64,000 nucleotides of DNA from Escherichia phage SelmaRatti. Both the position numbers and the translations under genes were made by a program. The notes under the pieces were generated by a model. That model was not told where the DNA came from, did no database searches, and saw only the letters and a list, made by a program, of their open reading frames with translations. Of the stretch, positions 28,960 through 42,628 are shown in pieces. Position 1 is the first letter of the stretch; each line of letters begins with the position of its first letter. The DNA lies in the sequence record MZ501103. One strand, given 5' to 3'.

Positions 28960-29729
28960 TTTACATCTATAGTATAACTCAGTTATCTACTGGAAGACAG
29001 TACGTTGGATCGACTAAGGATATTGAGGCTAGAAAGCGTAAACATTTTTACTCACTAAGTAAGGGGAACCACCATAACGCTTTTCTACAGAGAGCTTATG
29101 ATAAAACCGGAAAGCAAGACTTTGTATTTGACATCTTAGATACTACTGAAGAAGTAGATCAGCAGTTCCTACTAGAAGAAGAGTGGGCTAAGGAGCTGGG
29201 AGCAGAGTTCAACATAGGTAGTTACGGTGGTGGGGATAATCTCACAAATAATCCTCGAAGAGAGGAGATTATTAAGAGAATTGGTGAGAGTGTTAGAAAG
29301 CATATAGCGTCCTTATCTGAAGAAGAAAGAAAAGCCCGGTGGAGTAGACCAGGTGAGCTAAACTATAACTGGAAGGGAGGAGTATCTACTCGCTCAAAAA
29401 CATGTATTGATTGTGGTTCCCTACTAGCCCTTAATAACACTAATGGGGAGTACTGTAATAGTTGCAGGGATCGAACAGGTGAGAATAACCCCTTTTATGG
29501 GAAGAAGCATACTGAAGAGGCTCTGAGCAAGATGTCTCAGGCTTCTAAGCAGTACCAAGAAAGTATTAGAGAGGGAAAGACACCCCTTCCTACCCACTTT
29601 AAGGCAGTACGTGTGGATGGTGTGGAATACGTTAGTATGAGTGCAGCAGCTATAGCATTGGGGTGTTCCACAGCGACTATAGGTAATAGAGTTCGTTCAC
29701 CTAAGTTCCCGACGTATGAGTTTGTATAA
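28956..29729 (+). CDS. GIY-YIG homing endonuclease
   Basis: N-terminal IYIYSITQLSTGRQYVGSTKDIEARKRKH; C-terminal zinc-finger-like CIDCGS...CNSCRD. Confidence 0.75.
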   Translation: MIYIYSITQLSTGRQYVGSTKDIEARKRKHFYSLSKGNHHNAFLQRAYDKTGKQDFVFDILDTTEEVDQQFLLEEEWAKELGAEFNIGSYGGGDNLTNNPRREEIIKRIGESVRKHIASLSEEERKARWSRPGELNYNWKGGVSTRSKTCIDCGSLLALNNTNGEYCNSCRDRTGENNPFYGKKHTEEALSKMSQASKQYQESIREGKTPLPTHFKAVRVDGVEYVSMSAAAIALGCSTATIGNRVRSPKFPTYEFV

Positions 29730-29734
29730 TTTAA

Positions 29735-29760
29735 ATAGCCCTTCGGGGCTATTATATTTA
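29735..29760 (+). terminator. hairpin terminator after GIY-YIG gene
   Basis: atagccc-ttcg-gggctat then AT-rich tail. Confidence 0.45.
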
Positions 29761-29831
29761 AATTTCATTTGCTTATTTAGTGAAATTTAAATATAATATA
29801 CTCAATTAATAAACAAAGGATAAATACGAAT

Positions 29832-30341
29832 ATGATTAATCCAAAAGTAGCTAATGCCTATATTAAGTACAAAGAAGGGACAGCTTCAAAAGAGCAGCTA
29901 AAGTTGCTGCTAGATGTAATAGCCCAAACGTTCCATTATATGGAACTACATGCACTAAATAGTGATGAGGACTGCCAGCTAGTCATTCGTTATGATGGAG
30001 TAGGTCAGGAAGAGGAATGGCCGGACTATCTAGCAGAGGAGATAGATAGTATAGAGTGTGATGAATCTTTAACTGCTGAGGAAACAGCACAGAAGGTTCA
30101 AAGAGTACTAGATGAATATTATAAAACCAAACCTAAGAGGGGTGCAACCTGTTCCATAGAAACTCTCACACCTTGTGAAGATGATATTCAAGAGGTAACT
30201 GAGTGGTTCTCAGAGTTTAAAGAATATACCCACTACTTTAGTGAGCCAGCTTTTCTCTCACTATTAGCACTACCTAGAATGTATAAACCAGCAGATAGTG
30301 AACCATCACATTGGCCTGAAGATACCTACGAAGGGGAATAA
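29832..30341 (+). CDS. hypothetical acidic protein (169 aa)
   Basis: ORF with RBS. Confidence 0.45.
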   Translation: MINPKVANAYIKYKEGTASKEQLKLLLDVIAQTFHYMELHALNSDEDCQLVIRYDGVGQEEEWPDYLAEEIDSIECDESLTAEETAQKVQRVLDEYYKTKPKRGATCSIETLTPCEDDIQEVTEWFSEFKEYTHYFSEPAFLSLLALPRMYKPADSEPSHWPEDTYEGE

Positions 30342-30343
30342 TA

Positions 30344-30820
30344 ATGTCGGTTTTCCACGTTTACACAGATGGGGCTTGTAAGGGTAATCCGGGTTTAGGT
30401 GCTTGGGGTTTCGTAGTTTATGATCCTAATGACGAACGTTTAGGTTCTAAGTCGGGTTTCAGCCCAAAAACTACAAATAATGAAATGGAACTCACAGCTA
30501 TTGTTGAAGTTCTGCGCTGGGCCACTAAGAATGATAAACGCCCAGTTATAATTTACACTGACTCTGCATACTGTAAAAATGGTATGGAGAGTTGGGTATT
30601 TGCCTGGCAAAAGAAAGGATGGAAAAAAGCAGATGGTGAGGCCCCTCTTAATCTAGAACTATGGAAAGAGGCATTTTCTTTACTACAGAAATATATAAAC
30701 TTCCATGACACTACGCCTACTTTTATAAAAGTCAAAGGTCACTCAGGGGACCCTAGAAATGATGAAGTAGATGCTCTATGTAACACAGTTATTACTGAGC
30801 AAGAACTTGCTGAGATGTAA
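30344..30820 (+). CDS. ribonuclease H
   Basis: VYTDGACKGNPG start typical of RNase HI; 158 aa. Confidence 0.8.
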   Translation: MSVFHVYTDGACKGNPGLGAWGFVVYDPNDERLGSKSGFSPKTTNNEMELTAIVEVLRWATKNDKRPVIIYTDSAYCKNGMESWVFAWQKKGWKKADGEAPLNLELWKEAFSLLQKYINFHDTTPTFIKVKGHSGDPRNDEVDALCNTVITEQELAEM

Positions 30821-30896
30821 TAAATAAATTAAAAATCTTCTTGCTTAAAGCCCTCTAATTTAGTATAATATTCGTATTGAAAGTGAGGAGGGCTTT

Positions 30897-31175
30897 ATGC
30901 GAATTTATAACTCAAATTCATTAGGATTTAAACCGTTGAGAAAACGTGCACAATCACCTCGTCAAATAAGAAAGGCTAATATTGGTGAGCCAGAAACACG
31001 TCTCCCACCTCCTCCAGAACAACGTTTAGTTTATCTGGATGAAGAATTAGCTGAACGCGAAAGAAAAGCTCAAGAAGAGATTGAGCGTAAGAAAATGTGT
31101 ACTGCTCCAGCGTATAATAAAGGAGCGTATCAATATGTTTCCGATGCAGAACAAGCCAAGATGGTTGGTAGATAA
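30897..31175 (+). CDS. hypothetical protein (92 aa)
   Basis: ORF. Confidence 0.4.
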   Translation: MRIYNSNSLGFKPLRKRAQSPRQIRKANIGEPETRLPPPPEQRLVYLDEELAERERKAQEEIERKKMCTAPAYNKGAYQYVSDAEQAKMVGR

Positions 31176-31191
31176 TTTTTAAAAAATTCAG

Positions 31192-31220
31192 TTGCTAAAC
31201 GCTTCAAATTCTCGTATAGT
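31192..31220 (+). promoter_or_regulatory. sigma70-type early promoter
   Basis: TTGCTA-17-TATAGT then cataaattga. Confidence 0.5.
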
Positions 31221-31258
31221 ATACTTCATAAATTGATAAACAAAAAGGAAAACAAATA

Positions 31259-31774
31259 ATGGCTAAGCAGAAAAACGCAAAAACTCAAGCAGCTACTACA
31301 GTTAAAACTTTCCCGCAGACTGAGGCTAACCGCAAAGCTCGTCTGGAACGCCACCTGCGCAAGCACCCTACTGATGCTCAAGCTGCACAGGCACTGAATC
31401 GTCCGGCTCCTATTCGTCAAAAGCCGAAGGCTAAGAATGCTACTCGTTCTGTAGCCCGCCTTGTGACCTATGTACAGGGTTATGGTCACAAATCTGTTCC
31501 AGTAACACTGAGTTTCAATGCTGGAGCTGAATTGTTCTCTCGTAATGGCATGGCCATGAAAGATTATGAGAAAGCAGTTAACCAGAAGCGTAAACCAACG
31601 GCAGATGTACTGCGTGATGCTCGTGGACAGTTTGGTTCTGTTAAGCCAAATATCTTCGGTGTAGAGTATAGCAAAGATAACGTTCGTGCTCTGTGCTACG
31701 GTGTAGGGATTAAATTCACGGGCGATTCTGCTCGTAAATCTGCTAAACCAGCTCGTAAACGTAAAGCGAAGTAA
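31259..31774 (+). CDS. hypothetical basic protein (171 aa)
   Basis: Strong promoter and RBS, Lys/Arg-rich, followed by hairpin terminator. Confidence 0.5.
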   Translation: MAKQKNAKTQAATTVKTFPQTEANRKARLERHLRKHPTDAQAAQALNRPAPIRQKPKAKNATRSVARLVTYVQGYGHKSVPVTLSFNAGAELFSRNGMAMKDYEKAVNQKRKPTADVLRDARGQFGSVKPNIFGVEYSKDNVRALCYGVGIKFTGDSARKSAKPARKRKAK

Positions 31775-31779
31775 TAGAT

Positions 31780-31806
31780 AAGAGGGGCTTTCGCCCCTCT
31801 TAGTTT
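31780..31806 (+). terminator. rho-independent terminator
   Basis: agaggggc-tttc-gcccctct then tagttt. Confidence 0.55.
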
Positions 31807-31815
31807 GGAGAAACT

Positions 31816-32037
31816 ATGCGTAATTTTGTAGTAAAGAATGATTTTAACCGTGCTAGCACTCATAAGTCTGCTAGAGATTACACACGACTTTCTAGTCATG
31901 AGATAATGGATTTAGCAGTGGATGAGTTAGACTTAGATGACCTCTCTATGGAAGAGAACTGGGATGTCAGTGAAGATATGCTTCCTGGTTTTAAAGACCC
32001 CAAGAAGTGGGAGTCTATTAAAGAGACAACTCTTTAA
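31816..32037 (+). CDS. hypothetical protein (73 aa)
   Basis: ORF. Confidence 0.4.
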   Translation: MRNFVVKNDFNRASTHKSARDYTRLSSHEIMDLAVDELDLDDLSMEENWDVSEDMLPGFKDPKKWESIKETTL

Positions 32038-32065
32038 TAGTTTTCTACACAATAAAGGATAAGTT

Positions 32066-32767
32066 ATGAAAGTAAAACCATTTGGTATGCTAGATATTGA
32101 ATCTCTAGGAACTCCAGGAGATTGTGGTACTACTCATATTGTAATGCCTTCTTTCGCTTTTGTGGCTATGCACGGAATTGATAAAGATCCTGGTCTAGTG
32201 TTTGTTACTTTAGATGTACAAGATCAGCTTAATTCTGGAGCTAAAGTTACGGCATCTACTCTAGCATTCTGGATGGATCAAGCTAAACATAGCCCGTCTG
32301 CTGTCCACATTATGGAAGCTATGAAGGAACGTAATCCAAAACTGATTGCCTTCCAAAATGGTAAACATTATTGCACTAATAAATTAGGCTCAAACTATGC
32401 TGCCTTCTCTATGGCTAAAAACATTATGGAATCGGCTCTAGGAGAGAATGCTCTATACTACGGCAATGGCCCGGAGTTTGATATGACTATCTACTCTGCA
32501 AATACGTTCCACGCGGGAACTCACGAAGAGGTAGTTCCGTGGAAATTCTGGAACTTAGGTAATGTTCGATCTATACGCAATCTTTGGATGCAGGCTGGCT
32601 ATAGTTATAAAGATCTAGAAGCCGAAGGTATTAGCTGGGCAATAGCTAAAATGGAGAAGATGGACACCATTCGTTATGGGATCTATCCGGTTAAGCATGA
32701 TCCAGCATTCGATGCCTTAGTTGAGAGCTATTGTATTGCAGCTATGATCGAAAAAATGAAAATTTGA
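32066..32767 (+). CDS. DEDDh-type 3'-5' exonuclease-like protein
   Basis: N-terminal MLDIESLG (Exo I D-x-E) and C-terminal HDPAFDAL (Exo III H-x4-D). Confidence 0.45.
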   Translation: MKVKPFGMLDIESLGTPGDCGTTHIVMPSFAFVAMHGIDKDPGLVFVTLDVQDQLNSGAKVTASTLAFWMDQAKHSPSAVHIMEAMKERNPKLIAFQNGKHYCTNKLGSNYAAFSMAKNIMESALGENALYYGNGPEFDMTIYSANTFHAGTHEEVVPWKFWNLGNVRSIRNLWMQAGYSYKDLEAEGISWAIAKMEKMDTIRYGIYPVKHDPAFDALVESYCIAAMIEKMKI

Positions 32768-32768
32768 T

Positions 32769-32797
32769 TTGCTTCCGGCTCCAAAATTCTGTATAAT
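32769..32797 (+). promoter_or_regulatory. sigma70-type early promoter
   Basis: TTGCTT-17-TATAAT then cataaatttgag. Confidence 0.55.
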
Positions 32798-32854
32798 ATA
32801 TTCATAAATTTGAGAAAACAATAAAAAAAAGAAAACAATAAAAGGAAAACAAAT

Positions 32855-33037
32855 ATGCCAGTATCTAAAAATGTTCGTAAAAATGGTAAGAAAGCTACTC
32901 GTAACCTGGGTATCCGTCGTATGGCTGAACGTCAATCAGGTGTCCAGAAAATCTTTGATCTGCTAAATCGTGCTAATCCTAAAATTGATAACAGTAACGA
33001 TACTGTTCTGCGCACTCTGCTGGCAATTGGTCTGTAA
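32855..33037 (+). CDS. hypothetical protein (60 aa)
   Basis: ORF behind promoter 32769-32797. Confidence 0.4.
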   Translation: MPVSKNVRKNGKKATRNLGIRRMAERQSGVQKIFDLLNRANPKIDNSNDTVLRTLLAIGL

Positions 33038-33090
33038 TAAACCAAGTTTAAACAAATTCAAATCTCAAATTTCATATAAGGAAGCAAATA

Positions 33091-33729
33091 ATGACTACTA
33101 GTATTTCTAAAACTCGCGCTCTGGCAACTATCAAATCTCTGGAAGCTAAAATCCGTAAAGCTACTGAACAACAGCTTCTGATCGCTGTTGGTGAAGGTAA
33201 GGATAAAAATAAGGTTGTAGTTGGCGCTGCAATCGAAGTAGACGATCTGTCTGCTCGTATTAAGACTGATTTCCAGTCTCTGCTGGATATGATGTCCCAG
33301 CGTGATCGTATCAAAGCTGCTCTGATTAAAAGCAATGCTGAAACAATCGTTGAGATTGGCTCTCGTAAGATGACTGTTGCGGAAGCAATTGAAGCTAAGC
33401 GTTCTATGGAACTTAAAGCCCAACTGCTGGATAACATGCGTAAGCAGTTCCATGCCGCTACGGTTAAGTTTAATACGCAGAAAGCACAGTTTGATGCTAA
33501 ATATGAGCGTTTGCAGGATAGCATGGCTACCCGCGATAAGAAAACTTCCGAAGATGAAGTTAAAATGCAGCTCAACCTGCTGGAACTCAAGAATACTCCA
33601 TTCTTGATTGACCCGCTGGAACTGGAAAAGCTGATTAAGCAGCACGACGAGGAATACCAGGACTTTGCAACAAATGTTGACTTTGTTCTGTCCGAGTCTA
33701 ACGCCTCTACCTTTATTGAAGTAGAGTAA
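33091..33729 (+). CDS. hypothetical coiled-coil protein (212 aa)
   Basis: RBS aaggaag; overlapping minus-strand ORFs have implausible composition. Confidence 0.5.
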   Translation: MTTSISKTRALATIKSLEAKIRKATEQQLLIAVGEGKDKNKVVVGAAIEVDDLSARIKTDFQSLLDMMSQRDRIKAALIKSNAETIVEIGSRKMTVAEAIEAKRSMELKAQLLDNMRKQFHAATVKFNTQKAQFDAKYERLQDSMATRDKKTSEDEVKMQLNLLELKNTPFLIDPLELEKLIKQHDEEYQDFATNVDFVLSESNASTFIEVE

Positions 33730-34112
33730 TAATTTAAAAGCTAGTAAATCGGTAGACGAAAGCCCAAGCATCTTACCTCGCAGCAGCGGTTGAAATACGA
33801 GGTTAAATAAGACCGCTGACCATACTATAAAGTATAATCTATTGGAGATTATGTTTATTACATCAGACACTTAATCTGACACGTAAAAACAAAGCGTCGT
33901 TGATATTACCGACACAACTTCAAAGATCAACATTTAAGTATGAAAGCTGAAAAGTTTAAAGAACTCAAACTTCTAAACTTCTAAAGCTAAAAGATGCAAA
34001 GTATTCGTTGATGATTCAAACCCTAGATCAAAGGTACATGGCTCGTAAGATATGGCCTGTGGCGCCTCTAGGCTGTTTATCGGTTTACTAGTTTCACAAT
34101 TTAAAAATGTAT

Positions 34113-34141
34113 TTGCTAATCTACTAAATTATATGTATAAT
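34113..34141 (+). promoter_or_regulatory. sigma70-type early promoter (HNH gene)
   Basis: TTGCTA-17-TATAAT. Confidence 0.55.
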
Positions 34142-34171
34142 ATATTTTTAAATTGATGAAACGAGGCTATT

Positions 34172-34993
34172 ATGGGTAAATTACAAAAACAAATACTACC
34201 ATATATAGATTATATTCGAGAAATTATAAAATATAATCCTTATACCGGTAAATTATTTTATAAGCCTAATAAATACAAGAATAAAACTTGGCACACCCTA
34301 TATGCTGGGAGAGAAATATGTAGTAAGAACTCTAATGGGTACATCAGAGTTAGCTTGCTCTTAGGTAATAAACCCACAATTATTTATGGGCACCGAATAG
34401 CGTGGTTGCTCCATTATGGTGAAGAGCCACCTGATATGATCGACCATATAAATACCATACCGTGGGATAACAGAATTCTTAATCTAAGAGAGACAAATTT
34501 TAAGTTAAATAGGATTAATACTGATAAAACCGTAGGTGTAGAACTCCTCTCCGAGGGTTTTGTGTATAGCATTACATTAGGTGGAAAGTTTTTCGTATCT
34601 CCTGGCTTCACCACTTTCGAACAAGCTAAAGGGGAAAGAGAAAAACTAGTAAATGGTTTATGTAATGCAGAAATTGGGAAGCAGACCAATATTCTAATAG
34701 ACGATGTTAGAGATCTACCTGAAATGTCCATTATTTGTCGTACAGTTATAGGTGCGCTGGAACTATCAGATATGTTTAGTTTCACAGGATCCTATTTATT
34801 TATGGACTCAGATTTAGGGGATCCAGAGGTACAAGGAAAAGATTTATTAGATCATATACTATTTTTAGGTCAAAGACCACTAAAAGTGGTTCTAGTAACA
34901 TCTAATCCTGTTGACGCAGAGTACATGAGAGGAACCCTTACGTCTTATGGATACCGAGAAAATCCCAATAGATTAGAATATGATCTATTTTAA
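34172..34993 (+). CDS. HNH homing endonuclease (AP2/HNH_3-like)
   Basis: GYIRVSL...HRIAWLLHYGEEPPDMIDHINTIPWDNRILNLRETN. Confidence 0.7.
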   Translation: MGKLQKQILPYIDYIREIIKYNPYTGKLFYKPNKYKNKTWHTLYAGREICSKNSNGYIRVSLLLGNKPTIIYGHRIAWLLHYGEEPPDMIDHINTIPWDNRILNLRETNFKLNRINTDKTVGVELLSEGFVYSITLGGKFFVSPGFTTFEQAKGEREKLVNGLCNAEIGKQTNILIDDVRDLPEMSIICRTVIGALELSDMFSFTGSYLFMDSDLGDPEVQGKDLLDHILFLGQRPLKVVLVTSNPVDAEYMRGTLTSYGYRENPNRLEYDLF

Positions 34994-35005
34994 GGAGTAA
35001 AAAGA

Positions 35006-35455
35006 ATGAAGGCAGCTTTGCTTTTAGTAGCTGCCCTTACCTTCAGCTTTAGTAGTCAGGCATCGCACGATGCAAAAGAAATAGATTGCATTGCTAAAAA
35101 TATCTATTTCGAAAGTCGTGGTGAGGGCATAAAGGGAATGACGGCGATTGCACATGTTACTAAAAACCGTGTAAACTCCGGTAAATTCCCAGATTCCTAC
35201 TGTAAAGTATTATATCAGTCTAACCAGTTCTCTTGGGTATCTAAGAGACCAAAAGTTGATAAAACTGATGAGGCTTGGCAAACCGCCAAGAATTTAGCTA
35301 GAGTGATATACTACGTTGATTTACCACAAGATCCTACACATGGAGCACTATACTTCCATAGTGGTAAAGATAAACCTTACTGGACAAAGAAGTTTAAGAA
35401 AACAACTAAGATTAAGGGACATACGTTTTATAAACCTGTTGTCACTAAAACTTAA
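35006..35455 (+). CDS. SleB-like cell wall hydrolase with signal peptide
   Basis: Signal peptide then CIAKNIYFESRGEG...AIAHVTKNR...GALYFH. Confidence 0.55.
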   Translation: MKAALLLVAALTFSFSSQASHDAKEIDCIAKNIYFESRGEGIKGMTAIAHVTKNRVNSGKFPDSYCKVLYQSNQFSWVSKRPKVDKTDEAWQTAKNLARVIYYVDLPQDPTHGALYFHSGKDKPYWTKKFKKTTKIKGHTFYKPVVTKT

Positions 35456-35466
35456 AAATTTATTAA

Positions 35467-36156
35467 ATGAAAAAATTAACACAGGAAGAAGTAGAGAGTT
35501 ACCTAGTTAGTAGAGGCTTATTCACTAATGATAAGTATACTAATACTAGGACTAAAATGCAGTTCTGTTGCACCTATGGACATGTTTTTAATGCTACCCT
35601 AAATAATATTAGGAACGGAAGAGGTTGTCCCTACTGCTATGGAAATGTTAGGTACACTCAAGAACAAGTATCTGAATATTTGCGTAGTTTAGGATATTAC
35701 ACCATTACCAAATATATAAATAATAACTCTAAGCTACAACTTACTTGTAGTAAGGGGCATGTATGGATTACCACTTTTAGTGCCATAAAAAATATGGGTA
35801 ATAGATGCCCTGAGTGCTCCAATATATGGAGCGATGGTGGGATACTTTATATAATAACTAGTTCATTAGGTACAAAAATAGGAATTACTAATTCTCCTGC
35901 TCGTAGGTTAAGGGATTTGATTACTGCATCCGGGGATCCCACAGCTAAGTATTATGGTCATTATACATATGGTAGCTCTTCTAAATCAGAAACCCTTGCT
36001 TTAGAGAAGAAGGCACATATGTATTTTAAAAGTCATAATTGTGGTTATAGTGGATTTGCTGGATCTACTGAATACTTTAATATTTCCACCGAAGAGGCAG
36101 AAGAATTCCTCTTGAAAGAGGGGGCCACAATAGTACAGAAAGAGGGTGGTTTATGA
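35467..36156 (+). CDS. zinc-ribbon repeat + T5orf172/GIY-YIG-like domain protein (homing-endonuclease-like)
   Basis: FCCTYGHVF...CPYC, LTCSKGHVW...CPEC, then LYIITSSLGTKIGITNSPARRL. Confidence 0.6.
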   Translation: MKKLTQEEVESYLVSRGLFTNDKYTNTRTKMQFCCTYGHVFNATLNNIRNGRGCPYCYGNVRYTQEQVSEYLRSLGYYTITKYINNNSKLQLTCSKGHVWITTFSAIKNMGNRCPECSNIWSDGGILYIITSSLGTKIGITNSPARRLRDLITASGDPTAKYYGHYTYGSSSKSETLALEKKAHMYFKSHNCGYSGFAGSTEYFNISTEEAEEFLLKEGATIVQKEGGL

Positions 36157-36323
36157 AGAACTTGATCGTCATTGGTGTTAATACTCGCGGTATTCGTACT
36201 ACGAAAACTGTTAAAACTTCCAACGTTGCTGAGATCACTACGAACCCTAAGAAGTTTGATTTCGCTAAAGTCTCGGCAGTTATGACAGAACAATCTTTTA
36301 ACCAAGCACTGGGAATTAAATAA
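36153..36323 (+). CDS. small hypothetical protein (56 aa)
   Basis: ATG overlaps previous stop; stop overlaps next start (TAATG). Confidence 0.3.
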   Translation: MKNLIVIGVNTRGIRTTKTVKTSNVAEITTNPKKFDFAKVSAVMTEQSFNQALGIK

Positions 36324-36766
36324 TGGAAGAGAATATTCTAGATGTTTTGCGTAGGGCTTTGCAGGGATCTAAGGTTGATGGTTCTGATAAAGAAGTAGCT
36401 AAAAGCTACCAGACCATAATCGGAGATCTTCAGCGTGTTGATAAAGACTTCATTACTTCTGAACAGTTTGTATCTTATCTAAAAGCTCAACTGAAAAGCA
36501 TTAATCAGACGAAAGCTAAACTTCACGGTCAAGACCTTGATAATTATAGCTTGCAGTCTGCTCAGTATGAATATATACTGAACAAATGGTTACAGCAGTA
36601 TTTGCCACCTCAGTTATCTGATTCTGAGATTCGCAAATACTTTGCAGAATTAGTTAAGTTGAACCCTGGGATTACAAAAGGTATGCTGATGAAAGCGATT
36701 AAGGAAGAATTTCCTGGGCGTTATGATGGTGGTACTGCTGCTCAGATTGCTGGCGAATTTAATTAA
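36323..36766 (+). CDS. GatB/YqeY-domain protein
   Basis: QQYLPPQLSDSEI and C-terminal G..DGG.A.QIA match the YqeY pattern. Confidence 0.55.
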   Translation: MEENILDVLRRALQGSKVDGSDKEVAKSYQTIIGDLQRVDKDFITSEQFVSYLKAQLKSINQTKAKLHGQDLDNYSLQSAQYEYILNKWLQQYLPPQLSDSEIRKYFAELVKLNPGITKGMLMKAIKEEFPGRYDGGTAAQIAGEFN

Positions 36767-36789
36767 AAATTTACTTGCTAAATGCTTAT

Positions 36790-36818
36790 AAATTCTGTAT
36801 AATATATTCATAAATTAG
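36790..36818 (+). promoter_or_regulatory. sigma70-type early promoter driving the tRNA/ncRNA region
   Basis: TTGCTA-17-TATAAT then cataaattagag. Confidence 0.55.
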
Positions 36819-37455
36819 AGAGTAATTCTTCTCTAATTTATTAAATAGTGGGGTGTGGAAATCACTTATGTAGTAACACTGCCGTCCTAGTATAATTGGT
36901 ATTATCAAGCCGTAACTGGTGGAAGATGTAGGTTCGAATCCTACGGTCGGTAAGAACTGGATAACTGATGCTTTTAACGTAAAAGCTTCCGAGGTTAGTT
37001 GCGCACTGCCTAAACCACGCGGTAGTTGGTTCCAGACTAACCAACCAGTCTGCTGAATAGTTTTATTACGATTTAACTATGTCCAGGCTAAAGAAGAACT
37101 TTAGAAGGTATTTCTAGGGTAGTGAAGTTCTTTCTCCATATCGGAGTAGTTTTTCAGGCTATCCACAAAGTGGGAAATGCTGACATGAGAGATGTCACTA
37201 ATGGTGCACAATAGCACAGGTAATTCGCGATAACTCCTGTTGAGTAGCAGCAAAAGGCGGGAAGTCATGACCCCAAGCCTAACCGAGTCCTCAATATACC
37301 GCAGGACATAACCACTAAGTCACCCTGACTTAAACTGGAAAATAATAGACGTTACCGTATTTTGTCTTGAAATACTTAATGAGTGAGACTTATGACTCTC
37401 CCGGTATCGTCTGTATTTTTAAGAGTTTTTACGAGAGTTCTTAAAAATACTTAAA

Positions 37456-37530
37456 CGGGGTGTAGTCTAAGGGAGAGGCAGGAGTCTTCTAAATTCCTTT
37501 ATGCAGGTTCGAATCCTGTCACCTCGGCCA
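37456..37530 (+). tRNA. tRNA-Arg (anticodon TCT)
   Basis: Hand-folded cloverleaf: acceptor cggggtg/cacctcg, anticodon loop cttctaa, T-arm gcagg-ttcgaat-cctgt, encoded CCA. Confidence 0.7.
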
Positions 37531-37564
37531 ATTTTATTAACTGTAACTAAAACAAAGGAAATAT

Positions 37565-38512
37565 ATGTTTAATACTAAAAATATGAAAGAACTAACTTCT
37601 GAGCAGAAAGTAATTCGTACTATTAAACGTTGGGGGATTGGTGCTGTAGTTGGTTTAGCAGGTTTAATCCTAGCTTTTAATTCATATACTATTGTTTCTG
37701 ATGGTACGGTTAAAACTCAAACATTCCTGGGTAAAGTAGACCCTAATCCAGTATTACCTGGTTTCCATATTGTAAACCCGTTTGCATCTTTCGATACTTT
37801 CAGTACAAAAGATATTGCTGTAAAATTAGATAAACTTCAGGTTCCTAGTCAGGATAAGTTTAAATCCACTGTTGACCTGACTGTTATGTTACAATTTGAT
37901 GGTTCTAAGGCACCGATCAACCGTATTAATGCAGGTACTCAGGATCAGGCTCTAGATAAGTACGTAACTGAAAAATTACTGTCCACTATTCGTGAGTTCG
38001 GTAAGTCTGTACCTAAAGCACAAGATTTATTTGATGCTAAAATTCAGGCTCAATTGCAAACTGCAATTCAACAGGAAGTTGAAGAGTATGCACGCCCATA
38101 TGGTTACACAGTTAAGCAGGTATTCCTTCAGGATATTACTTTGCCACCGGTAATCATGGAACAGGTACAGAATACCAAAGTTCGTGAAGAACAGGTTAAT
38201 GCTGCTAAAGCTGAATTAGCTCGTGTTGAACAGGAAGCACAGCAAAAAGTTAAACAAGCAGAAGCAGATCGTGAAGCTCGCAACAACCAAGCTATCGCTA
38301 ATGAACGTGACGCAGATGCTAAACTGTACGCAGCTAAGAAAGAAGCTGAAGCTAACGCCGCACTGCAACGTACCATTACTCCTGAGATGATTCGTTGGAA
38401 ACAACTGGAAGTTGAGATGATTCGTGCTCAGAAATATCAAGGTGGTGTGCCGCAGACTGTGGTTGGCACTGGTTACGATGGCCAGATGATTATGGATATG
38501 CGTAATAAGTAA
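37565..38512 (+). CDS. SPFH/band-7 membrane protein
   Basis: N-terminal TM helix, band-7-like core, C-terminal coiled coil. Confidence 0.55.
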   Translation: MFNTKNMKELTSEQKVIRTIKRWGIGAVVGLAGLILAFNSYTIVSDGTVKTQTFLGKVDPNPVLPGFHIVNPFASFDTFSTKDIAVKLDKLQVPSQDKFKSTVDLTVMLQFDGSKAPINRINAGTQDQALDKYVTEKLLSTIREFGKSVPKAQDLFDAKIQAQLQTAIQQEVEEYARPYGYTVKQVFLQDITLPPVIMEQVQNTKVREEQVNAAKAELARVEQEAQQKVKQAEADREARNNQAIANERDADAKLYAAKKEAEANAALQRTITPEMIRWKQLEVEMIRAQKYQGGVPQTVVGTGYDGQMIMDMRNK

Positions 38513-38588
38513 TATCCACGCGTAATATTCGAAGTAAGCCCTGTGTTTCCTGGAGAGCGCAGGCAATTAAATGAATTTATATAAAATT

Positions 38589-38621
38589 TTGCTTGTTTTT
38601 GCGCGTAAAATTTTATATAAT
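38589..38621 (+). promoter_or_regulatory. sigma70-type early promoter
   Basis: TTGCTT then TATATAAT; exact -10 register ambiguous. Confidence 0.45.
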
Positions 38622-38651
38622 ATTTACTCAAATTTGGAAGAATACGTTAAC

Positions 38652-40596: not shown

Positions 40597-40680
40597 AGGG
40601 TCGTTAGCCAAGTGGTTTGGCGGCGGATTGTTAATCCGTGTCGAAAGACAACGTAGGTTCGATTCCTGCACCCGCTGCCA
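40597..40680 (+). tRNA. tRNA-like gene, candidate Asn (GTT); acceptor stem imperfect
   Basis: D-arm, anticodon arm gcgga-ttgttaa-tccgt, T-arm and CCA fold well, but acceptor pairs only 4/7 and an extra gtc-gaaa-gac hairpin sits in the variable region. Confidence 0.35.
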
Positions 40681-41423: not shown

Positions 41424-41756
41424 ATTTATATAAATTGATGCGAAAATAGCTGCCTAGATACCAGGTGTATGACGTCTACACTAGCAGAGCTACCGAAAAA
41501 GAGATCCTCAGGATAAACGTCGTAGCAAAATTAGTCTGGTATCCATCAATTTAGTTCACTAAGGTATTAGCTCGACCTAGGACTGGCTGCCAAAAAGCAC
41601 GACCCCTACGACTCGGGAGAAGTTCTAGATTAGTCCACTAGATTCAGCGGCAACTGAATAGTGTATCGGGTTTGTGAAGAGCGGCTATCCTCTACTGGCT
41701 AATGTATGAGGTTAGTACGCACACCGAGCTAATAGCCTTAGTAAACTAAAGAATTT

Positions 41757-42059: not shown

Positions 42060-42154
42060 GGTAGGTCAATCCAACGGCTGGCGATGGACTCCGACTTGAA
42101 ATCGGTTGATCGTAGTGATACGGTGTAAGGGTTCGATCCCCTTACCTACCTCCA
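42060..42154 (+). tRNA. tRNA-Ser (anticodon TGA), type II
   Basis: Acceptor ggtaggt/acctacc perfect, anticodon loop cttgaaa, variable hairpin cgta-gtga-tacg, T-arm aaggg-ttcgatc-ccctt, CCA. Confidence 0.65.
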
Positions 42155-42628
42155 AATCTTGAAGTATGCCGGAATCGGTAGACGGGGCTTCCTAAAGGGC
42201 GTAAGGGGAACATCCACTCCTCATAAGATACCCGAAAACGAGGCTGAGATAAATGGTCTATCTCGTGAAGGTTCAAGTCCTTCTGCTTCTTGATACCTCT
42301 ATGGCTCAAAGTGTAACGGTGCTATTTGATGCTCTTAGTAAGACTTTCCCGACATGCGTTCGGGGGTAAGCTGCTAAGACTAGAGTAGAAGAGTTTCGGA
42401 GAGCCGCCACAATTGAAAATTCGTACTCGTCTTGAGCTGCGTGCAATAGGAGATAACTTGATTAGTATTCTAGAACATGCTAATTGAGGAAGGTTTCTCT
42501 AACCCTGCGAGTTTTCAATTGTGGCTATATCATAATTGGTTAATGATCCTGATTGTGAATCAGGCCTTCCAAGCCTCGCTGAGTAGGGTTCGATTCCCTC
42601 TAGCAGCTCCAACTTTAAGGAAACATTT

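What the first reader, a model, noticed from the sequence alone, without database searches (positions are those of the whole stretch)
36860..37455. About 600 nt promoter-driven, ORF-free, GC-richer stretch at the head of the tRNA cluster
The strong promoter at 36790-36818 is followed by roughly 600 nt with no ORF of 60 aa or more. The stretch has local hairpins (for example cagact-aaccaacc-agtctg at about 37036) and a T-arm plus acceptor-like 3' element at 36928-36952 that lacks a foldable anticodon arm. It may encode one or more structured ncRNAs, degenerate tRNAs or a ribozyme-like element rather than spacer.
Basis: seen in the sequence. Interest (0 to 1): 0.6.

Follow-up and report, generated by a model that had tools for sequence, protein, structure and literature searches.

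The report
T5 "RNAX": large structured phage RNA
The ORF-free stretch is the counterpart of phage T5's annotated but never explained "RNAX", a roughly 640-nt highly folded non-coding RNA with a built-in tRNA look-alike; it heads the phage's tRNA gene cluster and is conserved across T5-like phages of enteric bacteria.

Summary
A conserved sigma-70 promoter (36775-36803) drives about 640 nt with no conserved ORF, ending exactly where tRNA-Arg(UCU) starts (37456).

The interval is the ortholog of misc_RNA rnaX (T5s08) in the phage T5 RefSeq record, annotated "stable RNA with unknown functions". Its existence is therefore already on record. No Rfam family, structure or paper on it was found.

Comparison with about 20 divergent relatives (Tequintavirus, Epseptimavirus, Sugarlandvirus, Hongcheonvirus, Pantoea and Yersinia T5-like phages) shows a genuinely structured RNA. 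On a 12-sequence alignment, 92% of cells pair, against 37-48% in slid controls. 48 pairs carry compensatory changes, against 26.5±2.8 in shuffles.

Its parts:
- A degenerate tRNA (36881-36952; Rfam tRNA 35.5 bits, no proper anticodon arm) mounted on a covarying 12-bp helix.
- A multi-hairpin core with invariant loops, including a palindromic AGUCAUGA loop.
- A three-way junction that occurs as sequence-unrelated alleles.
- A near-invariant 3' hairpin.

Relatives add 5' domains, up to about 1.3 kb in total.

It resembles GOLLD and ROOL in context (large phage RNAs at tRNA islands) but matches neither model. Function is unknown. I favour a trans-acting RNA scaffold released by RNase P.

The parts
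36775..36803 (+). Sigma-70 promoter: -35 TTGCTA, 17-nt spacer, -10 TATAAT. It is equivalent to T5 'promoter P 16-17'.
   Evidence: Consensus scan; T5 annotation; conserved in all lineages.
36811..36840 (+). 5' hairpin of 12 bp at or near +1, with loop TAATTC. In most relatives this loop is replaced by a 110-240 nt extra domain (D0).
   Evidence: Fold; alignment with Baret; leaders of 22 relatives; D0 alignment.
36817..37455 (+). RNAX, the ortholog of T5 misc_RNA rnaX/T5s08. The true 5' end may be about 36810. The 3' end abuts tRNA-Arg.
   Evidence: blastn of T5 rnaX against the window: 91.6% identity over positions 1-517 and 97.8% over 582-719; T5 and DT57C annotation.
36850..36856 (+). Invariant 5' motif GGGGUGU; its pairing partner is unresolved.
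   Evidence: At least 90% conserved in 21 representatives. Two competing partners were predicted.
36861..36874 (+). 5' strand of the 12-bp helix that encloses the tRNA-like element.
   Evidence: 8 of 12 pairs have compensatory changes and 98.5% of cells are paired.
36881..36952 (+). tRNA-like element. The acceptor stem has a U-U mismatch. D arm and T arm (GUAGG-UUCGAAU-CCUAC) are present. The anticodon arm is reduced to 3 bp with a 6-nt loop.
   Evidence: Rfam tRNA 35.5 bits; not called by ARAGORN; T-stem and short-stem covariation; annotated tRNA-OTHER in relatives.
36956..36969 (+). 3' strand of the enclosing helix, containing the invariant GAUAACU.
36970..36986 (+). Hairpin GCUUUU-AACGU-AAAAGC.
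   Evidence: Compensatory U-A to A-U and C-G changes.
37025..37045 (+). Hairpin GUUGGUU-CCAGACU-AACCAAC, in a variable region.
   Evidence: helix 10. It is absent or replaced in several lineages.
37141..37286 (+). Central domain closed by the predicted UCGG/CCGA helix (37141-44 with 37283-86). The closing helix is conserved but not supported by covariation.
   Evidence: helices 15-16; invariant AUCGGAG.
37181..37197 (+). Hairpin UGACAU-GAGAG-AUGUCA.
   Evidence: 4 of 6 pairs are compensatory (helix 19).
37202..37252 (+). Helix UGGUGC/GCAGCA with an inner helix 37216-20/37236-40.
   Evidence: helices 20-21: 3 of 5 pairs compensatory in each.
37255..37280 (+). Hairpin whose stems covary and whose 8-nt loop AGUCAUGA (37263-37270) is invariant. 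The loop holds the palindrome UCAUGA.
   Evidence: helices 22-23; the loop is identical in all 86 copies held and in Pantoea AAS21; stems differ by lineage.
37287..37307 (+). Hairpin GUCCUC...GAGGAC-like (window GUCCUCA/GCAGGAC).
   Evidence: 6 of 6 pairs are compensatory (helix 24).
37308..37340 (+). Invariant block AUAACCAC-N-AAGUCACCYUGACUUAAACUGGAA, with hairpin 37317-22/37326-31.
   Evidence: helices 25-26 (these never vary, so they say nothing about structure).
37347..37412 (+). Three-way junction: an outer stem, hairpin 1, the invariant CUUAA linker (37375-79), and hairpin 2. Relatives carry sequence-unrelated alleles with the same topology.
   Evidence: Separate folds of the window, S147 and Sugarlandvirus alleles give the same topology, z -3.5 to -4.3; the phiR2-01 and DU_PP_V alleles fold more simply. 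Alignment.
37413..37450 (+). 3' terminal hairpin of 17 bp with loop UACG, nearly invariant in sequence across subfamilies.
   Evidence: (helix 32). Expanded with compensatory changes in Pantoea AAS21.
37456..37530 (+). tRNA-Arg(UCU), directly abutting RNAX. RNase P cleavage at its 5' end would create the RNAX 3' end (inferred).
   Evidence: ARAGORN; Rfam 49.3 bits; no terminator-like site on the plus strand between the two.

Best explanation
Window 36817-37455 (possibly starting at about 36810) encodes the ortholog of phage T5 RNAX, a large, highly structured, non-coding early RNA.

Shown:
- It lies behind a conserved strong sigma-70 promoter, with no terminator before tRNA-Arg(UCU), which abuts it.
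- It has no conserved ORF.
- It folds into a conserved multi-domain structure: (i) a tRNA-like 'top half' carried on a covarying 12-bp helix, (ii) a core of covarying hairpins with invariant loops, (iii) a three-way junction, and (iv) a terminal 17-bp hairpin.
- The family is present in T5-like phages of Enterobacterales and in nothing else searched.

Inferred:
- The RNA is made as the 5' part of an early polycistronic transcript. RNase P cleavage at the 5' end of tRNA-Arg releases it, and the terminal hairpin and compact fold protect it. That would explain why T5's annotators call it a stable RNA.
- It then acts in trans as an RNA scaffold. Its invariant single-stranded motifs (AGUCAUGA, AUAACCAC, AACUGGAA, AUCGGAG) would bind a partner.
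- The swappable tRNA-like module offers an acceptor/elbow mimic to a tRNA-binding factor. That factor could be a host tRNA enzyme or nuclease, or the YqeY-like protein encoded just upstream.
- The palindromic loop could mediate loop-loop self-association, as in other large phage RNAs that form homo-oligomers.

Likelihoods:
- Functional structured ncRNA orthologous to RNAX: about 0.9.
- Trans-acting scaffold rather than a mere leader or a set of small RNAs: about 0.5.
- Self-association through the palindromic loop: about 0.2.
For: Orthology and synteny with T5 and DT57C rnaX, 'stable RNA with unknown functions'.

Promoter. No plus-strand terminator.

No Pfam hit for the internal ORFs and no conserved ORF.

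Covariation:
- RNAalifold predicts 105 pairs, 33 of them compensatory.
- On the 12-sequence alignment, 156 pairs are 92.1% paired, against 37-48% when slid. 48 pairs change on both sides, against 26.5+-2.8 in shuffles (0 of 500) and 5-13 when slid.
- In the 5' domain, 36 pairs are 94.1% paired and 17 are compensatory, against 6.1+-1.6 (0 of 500). The enclosing helix has 8 of 12 compensatory pairs.
- Many G-U pairs fix the plus strand.

Sequence-unrelated alleles of the 3' junction fold alike.

A covariance model of the 5' domain recovers sequences it was not trained on: Pantoea AAS21 at 131 bits, Yersinia phiR2-01 at 99 bits, KFSSM at 119 bits. Its other matches (at most 40 bits) sit mostly on tRNA genes and their flanks, and it finds nothing in the chance-motif loci L106-L111.

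The family is seen in about 500 phage records.

RNAX stays conserved when ORFs separate it from tRNA-Arg, which argues for a role beyond a leader.

The AGUCAUGA loop is invariant.
Against: - No transcript data were available to me. 'Stable RNA' rests on the words of the T5 annotators.
- The 5' end is uncertain (36810 or 36817).
- Overall nucleotide identity to Epseptimavirus-like relatives (0.70-0.83) is only about that of four-fold degenerate sites in the neighbouring SPFH gene (0.66-0.81). Constraint shows in kept pairing and invariant motifs, not in bulk conservation.
- The tRNA-like module is replaced by a plain hairpin in GSW6, L029 and L042, so tRNA mimicry cannot be essential to the core function.
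- The YqeY gene is not adjacent to RNAX in Sugarlandvirus.
- The palindromic loop never varies, so the dimer idea has no covariation test.
- Several predicted long-range helices have competing alternatives.
Confidence: 0.6

Rival explanations
1. It is a precursor that is cut into several independent small stable RNAs: the tRNA-like piece plus others, like T5 RNAI, RNAIII and RNA1 further down the cluster. It would not be one large functional RNA.
For: The T5 record lists seven other small 'stable RNAs', some called tRNA-like, in the same cluster, and orthologs of four of them are in this window. The tRNA-like element has an acceptor and T arm of the kind that RNase P and 3' processing enzymes recognise (established knowledge, not tested here).
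Against: A covarying 12-bp helix joins the sequence 5' of the tRNA-like element to the sequence 3' of it. This makes little sense if the pieces separate and act alone. T5's annotators list it as a single 719-nt RNA. Lineages with a plain hairpin in the tRNA slot have no such processing site but keep the rest.
Confidence: 0.15
2. It is a cis-acting leader or processing cassette whose only role is to help the maturation or expression of the downstream tRNA-Arg and SPFH gene.
For: It directly abuts tRNA-Arg in the window and in T5, with no terminator between them.
Against: In S147, CitS1, GSW6, KFSSM and IrmaTschudi a 510-nt ORF sits between RNAX and tRNA-Arg. Sugarlandvirus has two ORFs there and Pantoea AAS21 has several. 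RNAX is kept in all of them. A structured region of 600-1300 nt is far beyond what any known tRNA leader needs.
Confidence: 0.1
3. It is non-functional debris: decayed tRNA genes, leftovers of homing-endonuclease traffic, or spacer.
For: One degenerate tRNA is present. Homing-endonuclease ORFs are inserted at both RNAX borders in relatives. Indels and module swaps are frequent. Bulk divergence is near the synonymous rate.
Against: Base pairing is kept through many compensatory changes. Blocks of 7-17 nt are invariant across subfamilies. The promoter is conserved.
Confidence: 0.03
4. It encodes one or more small proteins.
For: ORFs of 45-60 aa exist, and some relatives' annotations list 'hypothetical proteins' here.
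Against: There are no Pfam matches. ORF positions, strands and lengths are not conserved between lineages. Substitutions follow base pairing, not codons.
Confidence: 0.02

Closest known systems
Phage T5 RNAX (gene rnaX, locus T5s08, NC_005859 40848-41566; also annotated in DT57C)
   Same: It has the same position: after the YqeY-like gene and promoter P 16-17, and ending at tRNA-Arg(UCU). It is on the same strand. Identity is 92-98% over the shared parts.
   Different: T5 carries an extra 83 nt flanked by a direct repeat of GUCACCUUGACWUAAACUGGAA. T5 has a perfect acceptor stem where the window has a U-U mismatch. The T5 record gives no structure or function.
GOLLD RNA (giant ornate phage/prophage RNA)
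   Same: It is a large, elaborately folded RNA of phages, found next to tRNA islands. [quoted passage not shown] RNAX shows all of these: invariant blocks concentrate in the 3' half, the 5' domains are optional, and a tRNA-like insert sits in a variable slot.
   Different: There is no match to any Rfam model other than tRNA, even at E<=10. The host range differs (T5-like phages of Enterobacterales). Oligomeric cage formation is unknown for RNAX.
ROOL RNA
   Same: It is a phage/prophage RNA of about 600 nt near tRNA islands, abundant, with no known protein partner or function (PMC12286853).
   Different: There is no Rfam match. The sequence and secondary structure are unrelated.
Phage T4 species 1 and 2 RNAs (rnaC, rnaD) in the T4 tRNA cluster (from my own knowledge, not checked here)
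   Same: They are stable phage RNAs of unknown function, co-transcribed and co-processed with a phage tRNA cluster.
   Different: They are much smaller (about 120-140 nt). No homology was tested.
3'-end formation of MALAT1 / MEN-beta by RNase P at a downstream tRNA-like element (from my own knowledge)
   Same: A long non-coding RNA would get its mature 3' end from RNase P cutting at the 5' side of an abutting tRNA-shaped element, and a terminal structure then protects that end. For RNAX this is an inference.
   Different: That system is eukaryotic and nuclear. There the protecting structure is a triple helix, and the downstream element is a mimic rather than a real tRNA.

Membership tests
T5 RNAX (rnaX) | Sequence orthology to the annotated T5 misc_RNA | tested here: met
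   blastn gives 91.6% identity over rnaX positions 1-517 (window 36817-37340) and 97.8% over positions 582-719 (window 37318-37455).
T5 RNAX (rnaX) | Synteny: YqeY-like gene, then promoter P 16-17, then RNAX, then tRNA-Arg(UCU), then an SPFH/'lipoprotein' gene | tested here: met
T5 RNAX (rnaX) | Accumulates as a stable transcript in infected cells | not testable with these tools
   Only the wording of the T5 and DT57C records is available. No paper was found.
tRNA (for 36881-36952) | Reaches the Rfam tRNA gathering score | tested here: met
   35.5 bits against a gathering score of 29.
tRNA (for 36881-36952) | Acceptor stem and a T arm with a UUCGAAU loop | tested here: met
   The T stem is 100% paired, with 2 compensatory pairs. 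The acceptor stem is 83% paired, with a U-U at the fifth pair in 8 of 11 sequences.
tRNA (for 36881-36952) | A 5-bp anticodon stem with a 7-nt loop presenting an anticodon | tested here: not met
   The 18 nt are left unaligned by the Rfam model. Only a covarying 3-bp stem with a 6-nt loop is present. ARAGORN makes no call in the window. The content of this slot differs between lineages.
GOLLD RNA | Match to the Rfam covariance model | tested here: not met
   There is no hit at E<=10 in window 36700-37600, nor in the long versions L081, L083 and L094, nor at E<=1 in seven relatives.
GOLLD RNA | A large phage RNA beside a tRNA island, with a conserved 3' part and a variable 5' part that may hold tRNAs | tested here: met
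   The family description comes from PMC12286853. This is a resemblance in layout, not evidence of homology.
ROOL RNA | Match to the Rfam covariance model | tested here: not met
GOLLD/ROOL-type RNA-only assemblies | Forms homo-oligomeric particles | not testable with these tools
   There is only a lead: the invariant palindromic loop AGUCAUGA.
tmRNA | A tRNA-like domain formed by the 5' and 3' ends, plus a tag reading frame | tested here: not met
   ARAGORN finds no tmRNA and there is no Rfam hit. Here the tRNA-like element is contiguous.

The most novel reading that the evidence does not exclude
RNAX is the founding member of a third, independent class of giant ornate phage RNAs tied to tRNA arrays, alongside GOLLD and ROOL.

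- It has a conserved 3' core and plug-in 5' modules: a tRNA mimic and the domains D0 and D0b.
- It reaches about 1.3 kb in Klebsiella Sugarlandvirus.
- It would self-assemble through its invariant palindromic loop.
- It would act on the tRNA or translation apparatus, or against tRNA-targeting host defences.

Because it sits in the genetically tractable model phage T5, this would be the first such RNA whose function could be dissected by simple phage genetics.
Probability: 0.25. Interest if true: 0.8.

Novelty: already known. Interest (0 to 1): 0.55.

Why it matters
Large, elaborately folded bacterial and phage RNAs of unknown function are rare, and each has been a source of new RNA biology. 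RNAX appears to be one of them, sitting in a textbook coliphage.

It has been listed in the T5 record only as a 'stable RNA with unknown functions'. I found no Rfam family, no published structure and no study of it.
- a covariation-supported architecture;
- the tRNA-mimic module mounted on a conserved helix;
- the invariant motifs;
- the range of the family across T5-like phages of Enterobacterales.

Phage tRNA clusters are now known to counter tRNA-cleaving defence systems such as PARIS (PMC11464382). A conserved RNA at the head of that cluster is therefore an obvious candidate for a role in that conflict or in translational take-over. T5 offers the genetics to test this.

Tried and rejected
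- **Rfam.** I ran permissive scans of the window region (E<=10), of seven relatives (E<=1) and of the long versions (E<=10), plus a gathering-threshold scan of the whole window. Within RNAX only tRNA matched, and nothing else reached a gathering score or a convincing E-value.
- **Motif scan of IMG/VR for AAGTCACCYTGACWTAAACTGGA.** It found only T5-like contigs.
- **3' hairpin pattern in IMG/VR and in metagenomes.** Hits were T5-like contigs plus chance hits. In L089, L090 and L093 the pattern sits after a coding region, apparently a structural gene (translation not checked); L087 is AT-rich DNA with none of the RNAX motifs.
- **5' motif in 185,579 bacterial and archaeal genomes.** It gave 6 hits, about what chance predicts for 18 fixed bases (my estimate is roughly 17). 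L106, the one I read, has none of the downstream RNAX motifs and reads like coding sequence. Model R1 finds nothing in any of the six.
- **Distant blastn against 5,426 complete E. coli genomes.** There was no match, so the element is neither host-derived nor in prophages.
- **Literature.** Seven full-text searches (an eighth query was rejected for a term under three characters) found nothing on RNAX. The single 'RNAX' full-text hit did not hold the term in its main text.
- **Folding energy as evidence.** Both strands give z of about -2.8, so it is uninformative.
- **Complementarity between window UUAGAAG (about 37105) and the tRNA-Arg anticodon loop.** It is not conserved outside Tequintavirus (by eye), so I rejected it as chance.
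- **CCAG/CUGG long-range pairing (37033-36 with 37335-38).** It is not conserved in several lineages, so I dropped it.
- **Natural variants of the palindromic loop, to test the dimer idea.** None exist among the 86 copies held.
- **Structure-aware MAFFT modes.** They are not installed, so I used L-INS-i.

Full report
**What the window is, and what lies at the coordinates.**

The window is a T5-like phage. The interval 36760-37560 is 99% identical to Salmonella phage MET_P1_100_107, Escherichia phage Baret and many other Tequintavirus genomes.

- A sigma-70-type promoter, TTGCTA-17-TATAAT, lies at 36775-36803.
- ARAGORN finds the first tRNA of the cluster, tRNA-Arg(UCU), at 37456-37530.
- Between them the longest ORFs are 60 aa (minus strand, TTG start), 55 aa (minus) and 45 aa (plus).
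- None of these matches Pfam, and none is conserved in 22 relatives.
- GC content is slightly raised, 0.41-0.42 against 0.33-0.39.

**It is already annotated in T5.**

- It runs from 'promoter P 16-17' to the first base before tRNA-Arg.
- DT57C has the same feature.
- blastn of T5 rnaX places it at window 36817-37455, with 91.6% and 97.8% identity in two pieces. The gap between the pieces is an 83-nt T5-specific insertion flanked by a direct repeat.
- The T5 record lists seven further 'stable RNAs' in the tRNA region. Orthologs of four of them are in this window.

Seven full-text searches found no paper on RNAX.

The published T5 deletions in the tRNA region that I could read about span 29191-38625 and do not reach rnaX (PMC11464382). 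Its dispensability is therefore unknown.

**The degenerate tRNA.**

Rfam's tRNA model matches 36881-36952 at 35.5 bits (gathering score 29). The acceptor, D and T arms align, but the 18 nt of the anticodon region do not. ARAGORN does not call it. Relatives annotate it as tRNA-OTHER, tRNA-Sec, tRNA-Ser or tRNA-Pro, which shows how unstable the call is.

Across lineages:
- the T stem covaries (GUAGG/CCUAC, GUGGG/CCCAC, GCAGG/CCUGC);
- a 3-bp stem with a 6-nt loop replaces the anticodon arm and also covaries.

The slot holds at least six different inserts in different lineages. One has an extra hairpin in the anticodon arm. In GSW6, L029 and L042 the insert is a plain hairpin with no tRNA shape.

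**It is one large structured RNA.**

I collected relatives from these groups:
- Tequintavirus;
- Epseptimavirus;
- Klebsiella Sugarlandvirus;
- Pectobacterium Hongcheonvirus DU_PP_V;
- Yersinia phiR2-01;
- Pantoea AAS21

.

Covariation results:

| Test | Result |
|---|---|
| RNAalifold, 12 sequences | 105 pairs, 33 compensatory |
| Pair count, 156-pair structure | 92.1% of cells paired, against 37-48% when partners are slid |
| Same structure, pairs changed on both sides | 48, against 26.5±2.8 in shuffles (0 of 500) and 5-13 when slid |
| Hand-drawn 5' domain, 11 sequences including DU_PP_V | 94.1% paired; 17 compensatory pairs against 6.1±1.6 (0 of 500) |

The most telling helix is 36861-74 with 36956-69. 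It joins the sequence on either side of the tRNA-like element. 8 of its 12 pairs are compensatory, and it is kept whatever occupies the slot.

Other well-supported hairpins:
- 36970-86;
- 37181-97;
- 37202-52;
- 37255-80;
- 37287-307, where 6 of 6 pairs are compensatory.

The 3' junction (37347-37412) occurs as alleles with no sequence similarity. The window, S147 and Sugarlandvirus alleles fold into the same layout: outer stem, hairpin, CUUAA linker, hairpin.

Frequent G-U pairs, the promoter and the tRNA orientation fix the plus strand. Folding energy does not discriminate between the strands.

Blocks conserved at 90% or more in 21 representatives:
- GGGGUGU;
- ACUUAUGU;
- AACACUGCC;
- GAUAACU;
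- AUCGGAG;
- AGUCAUGACC;
- AUAACCAC;
- AAGUCACC;
- UGACU;
- AACUGGAA;
- CUUAA;
- most of the terminal hairpin.

**Family range and modularity.**

About 500 phage records match.

- A covariance model of the 5' domain finds every T5-like locus, including those it was not trained on: AAS21 at 131 bits, phiR2-01 at 99 bits and KFSSM at 119 bits.
- Its other matches (at most 40 bits) sit mostly on tRNA genes and their flanks, and it finds nothing in unrelated loci.
- Motif scans of IMG/VR, metagenomes and 185,579 genomes gave only T5-like contigs or chance hits.
- E. coli genomes have no match.

Most relatives carry additional 5' domains.
- D0 is 110-240 nt and is inserted in the loop of the +1 hairpin. 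It has conserved motifs and some covariation.
- D0b is about 170 nt.
- In Sugarlandvirus the distance from the promoter to the 3' hairpin is about 1.26-1.3 kb, and the PWKp9S record annotates no CDS there.
- The window, T5 and SP01 have the minimal form.

Homing-endonuclease ORFs sit at both borders of RNAX in several lineages.

**How it probably works.**

Shown: the promoter, the absence of a terminator, direct abutment with tRNA-Arg, the conserved fold, and the invariant loops.

Inferred:
- RNase P cleavage at the tRNA-Arg 5' end makes the RNAX 3' end.
- The 17-bp terminal hairpin then shields that end.
- The RNA acts in trans.

RNAX is retained where ORFs separate it from tRNA-Arg, which argues against a pure leader role. 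The bridging helix argues against independent small RNAs.

The tRNA-like module keeps the part of a tRNA that processing enzymes and many tRNA-binding proteins recognise. It is dispensable in some lineages, so it looks like an accessory.

A weak YqeY-like protein (25.7 bits, cut-off 27) is encoded just upstream in most lineages, but not adjacent to RNAX in Sugarlandvirus.

The loop AGUCAUGA is invariant in all 86 copies held and contains the palindrome UCAUGA. This invites a kissing-loop self-association hypothesis, which I could not test.

One caution: bulk divergence of RNAX is close to that of synonymous sites in the neighbouring gene. The evidence for constraint is the kept pairing and the invariant motifs.

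**Comparison with known systems.**

By position and sequence this is T5 RNAX. In layout it most resembles GOLLD and ROOL:
- they are large phage RNAs at tRNA islands;
- GOLLD has a conserved 3' part, a variable 5' part and occasional embedded tRNAs (PMC12286853).

It matches neither model, nor any Rfam family other than tRNA. It should therefore not be filed under either.

**Verdict.**

- The RNA's existence is already on record, so I rate novelty as 'already known'.
- Its architecture, its family range and its likely status as a GOLLD/ROOL-like orphan in a model phage were not described in anything I could find, and its function is open.
- Interest: 0.55.

Noticed in passing
L001 (Baret) 1563-1725; L081 (PWKp9S) about 1090-1500; window 36823-36828 is the corresponding empty loop: Most relatives carry one or two extra structured 5' domains between the promoter and the GGGGUGU motif. 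D0 is 110-240 nt, with the conserved motifs GAACAGCGAGCCGAUUACGCUGA and CUCGUAAACUCUUCU. D0b is about 170 nt. The window, T5 and SP01 lack both. With them the Sugarlandvirus transcript would be about 1.3 kb. No Rfam match.
   Followed up: partly
L047 111-593, L048 96-593, L084 711-1193, L085 311-793; L048 1181-1690, L094 about 1234-1760: Homing-endonuclease-type ORFs are inserted at both borders of RNAX in several lineages. An HNH-type ORF sits right after the promoter, replacing D0. A 510-nt ORF sits right after the 3' hairpin. The RNAX borders look like homing hot spots.
   Followed up: partly
L004 (T5) 1986-2068: T5 has an 83-nt insertion inside RNAX, flanked by a direct repeat of GUCACCUUGACWUAAACUGGAA. 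This duplicates one of the invariant motifs.
   Followed up: no
window 41565-41677, 42158-42295, 42303-42409, 42414-42519: These are orthologs of four more T5 'stable RNAs with unknown functions': rna2H, rna1, rnaI and rnaIII, at 81-98% identity. They lie further down the tRNA cluster. None reaches any Rfam family's gathering score.
   Followed up: partly
window 40598-40674 and 42060-42154: The tRNA callers disagree. Rfam's tRNA model hits 40598-40674 (41.1 bits), which ARAGORN does not list. ARAGORN's tRNA-Ser(tga) at 42060-42154 is not in Rfam's gathering-threshold list.
   Followed up: no
window 36850-36856 and 37457-37463: RNAX's invariant 5' motif GGGGUGU is identical to bases 2-8 of the abutting tRNA-Arg (CGGGGUGUAG). 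This may be chance or a trace of common origin.
   Followed up: no
window 36323-36766: The gene just upstream of the RNAX promoter encodes a 147-aa protein with a weak YqeY-like match (25.7 bits, cut-off 27). Public records name it variously 'tRNA amidotransferase' or 'recombination related exonuclease'. It is adjacent to RNAX in most lineages, but not in Sugarlandvirus.
   Followed up: partly
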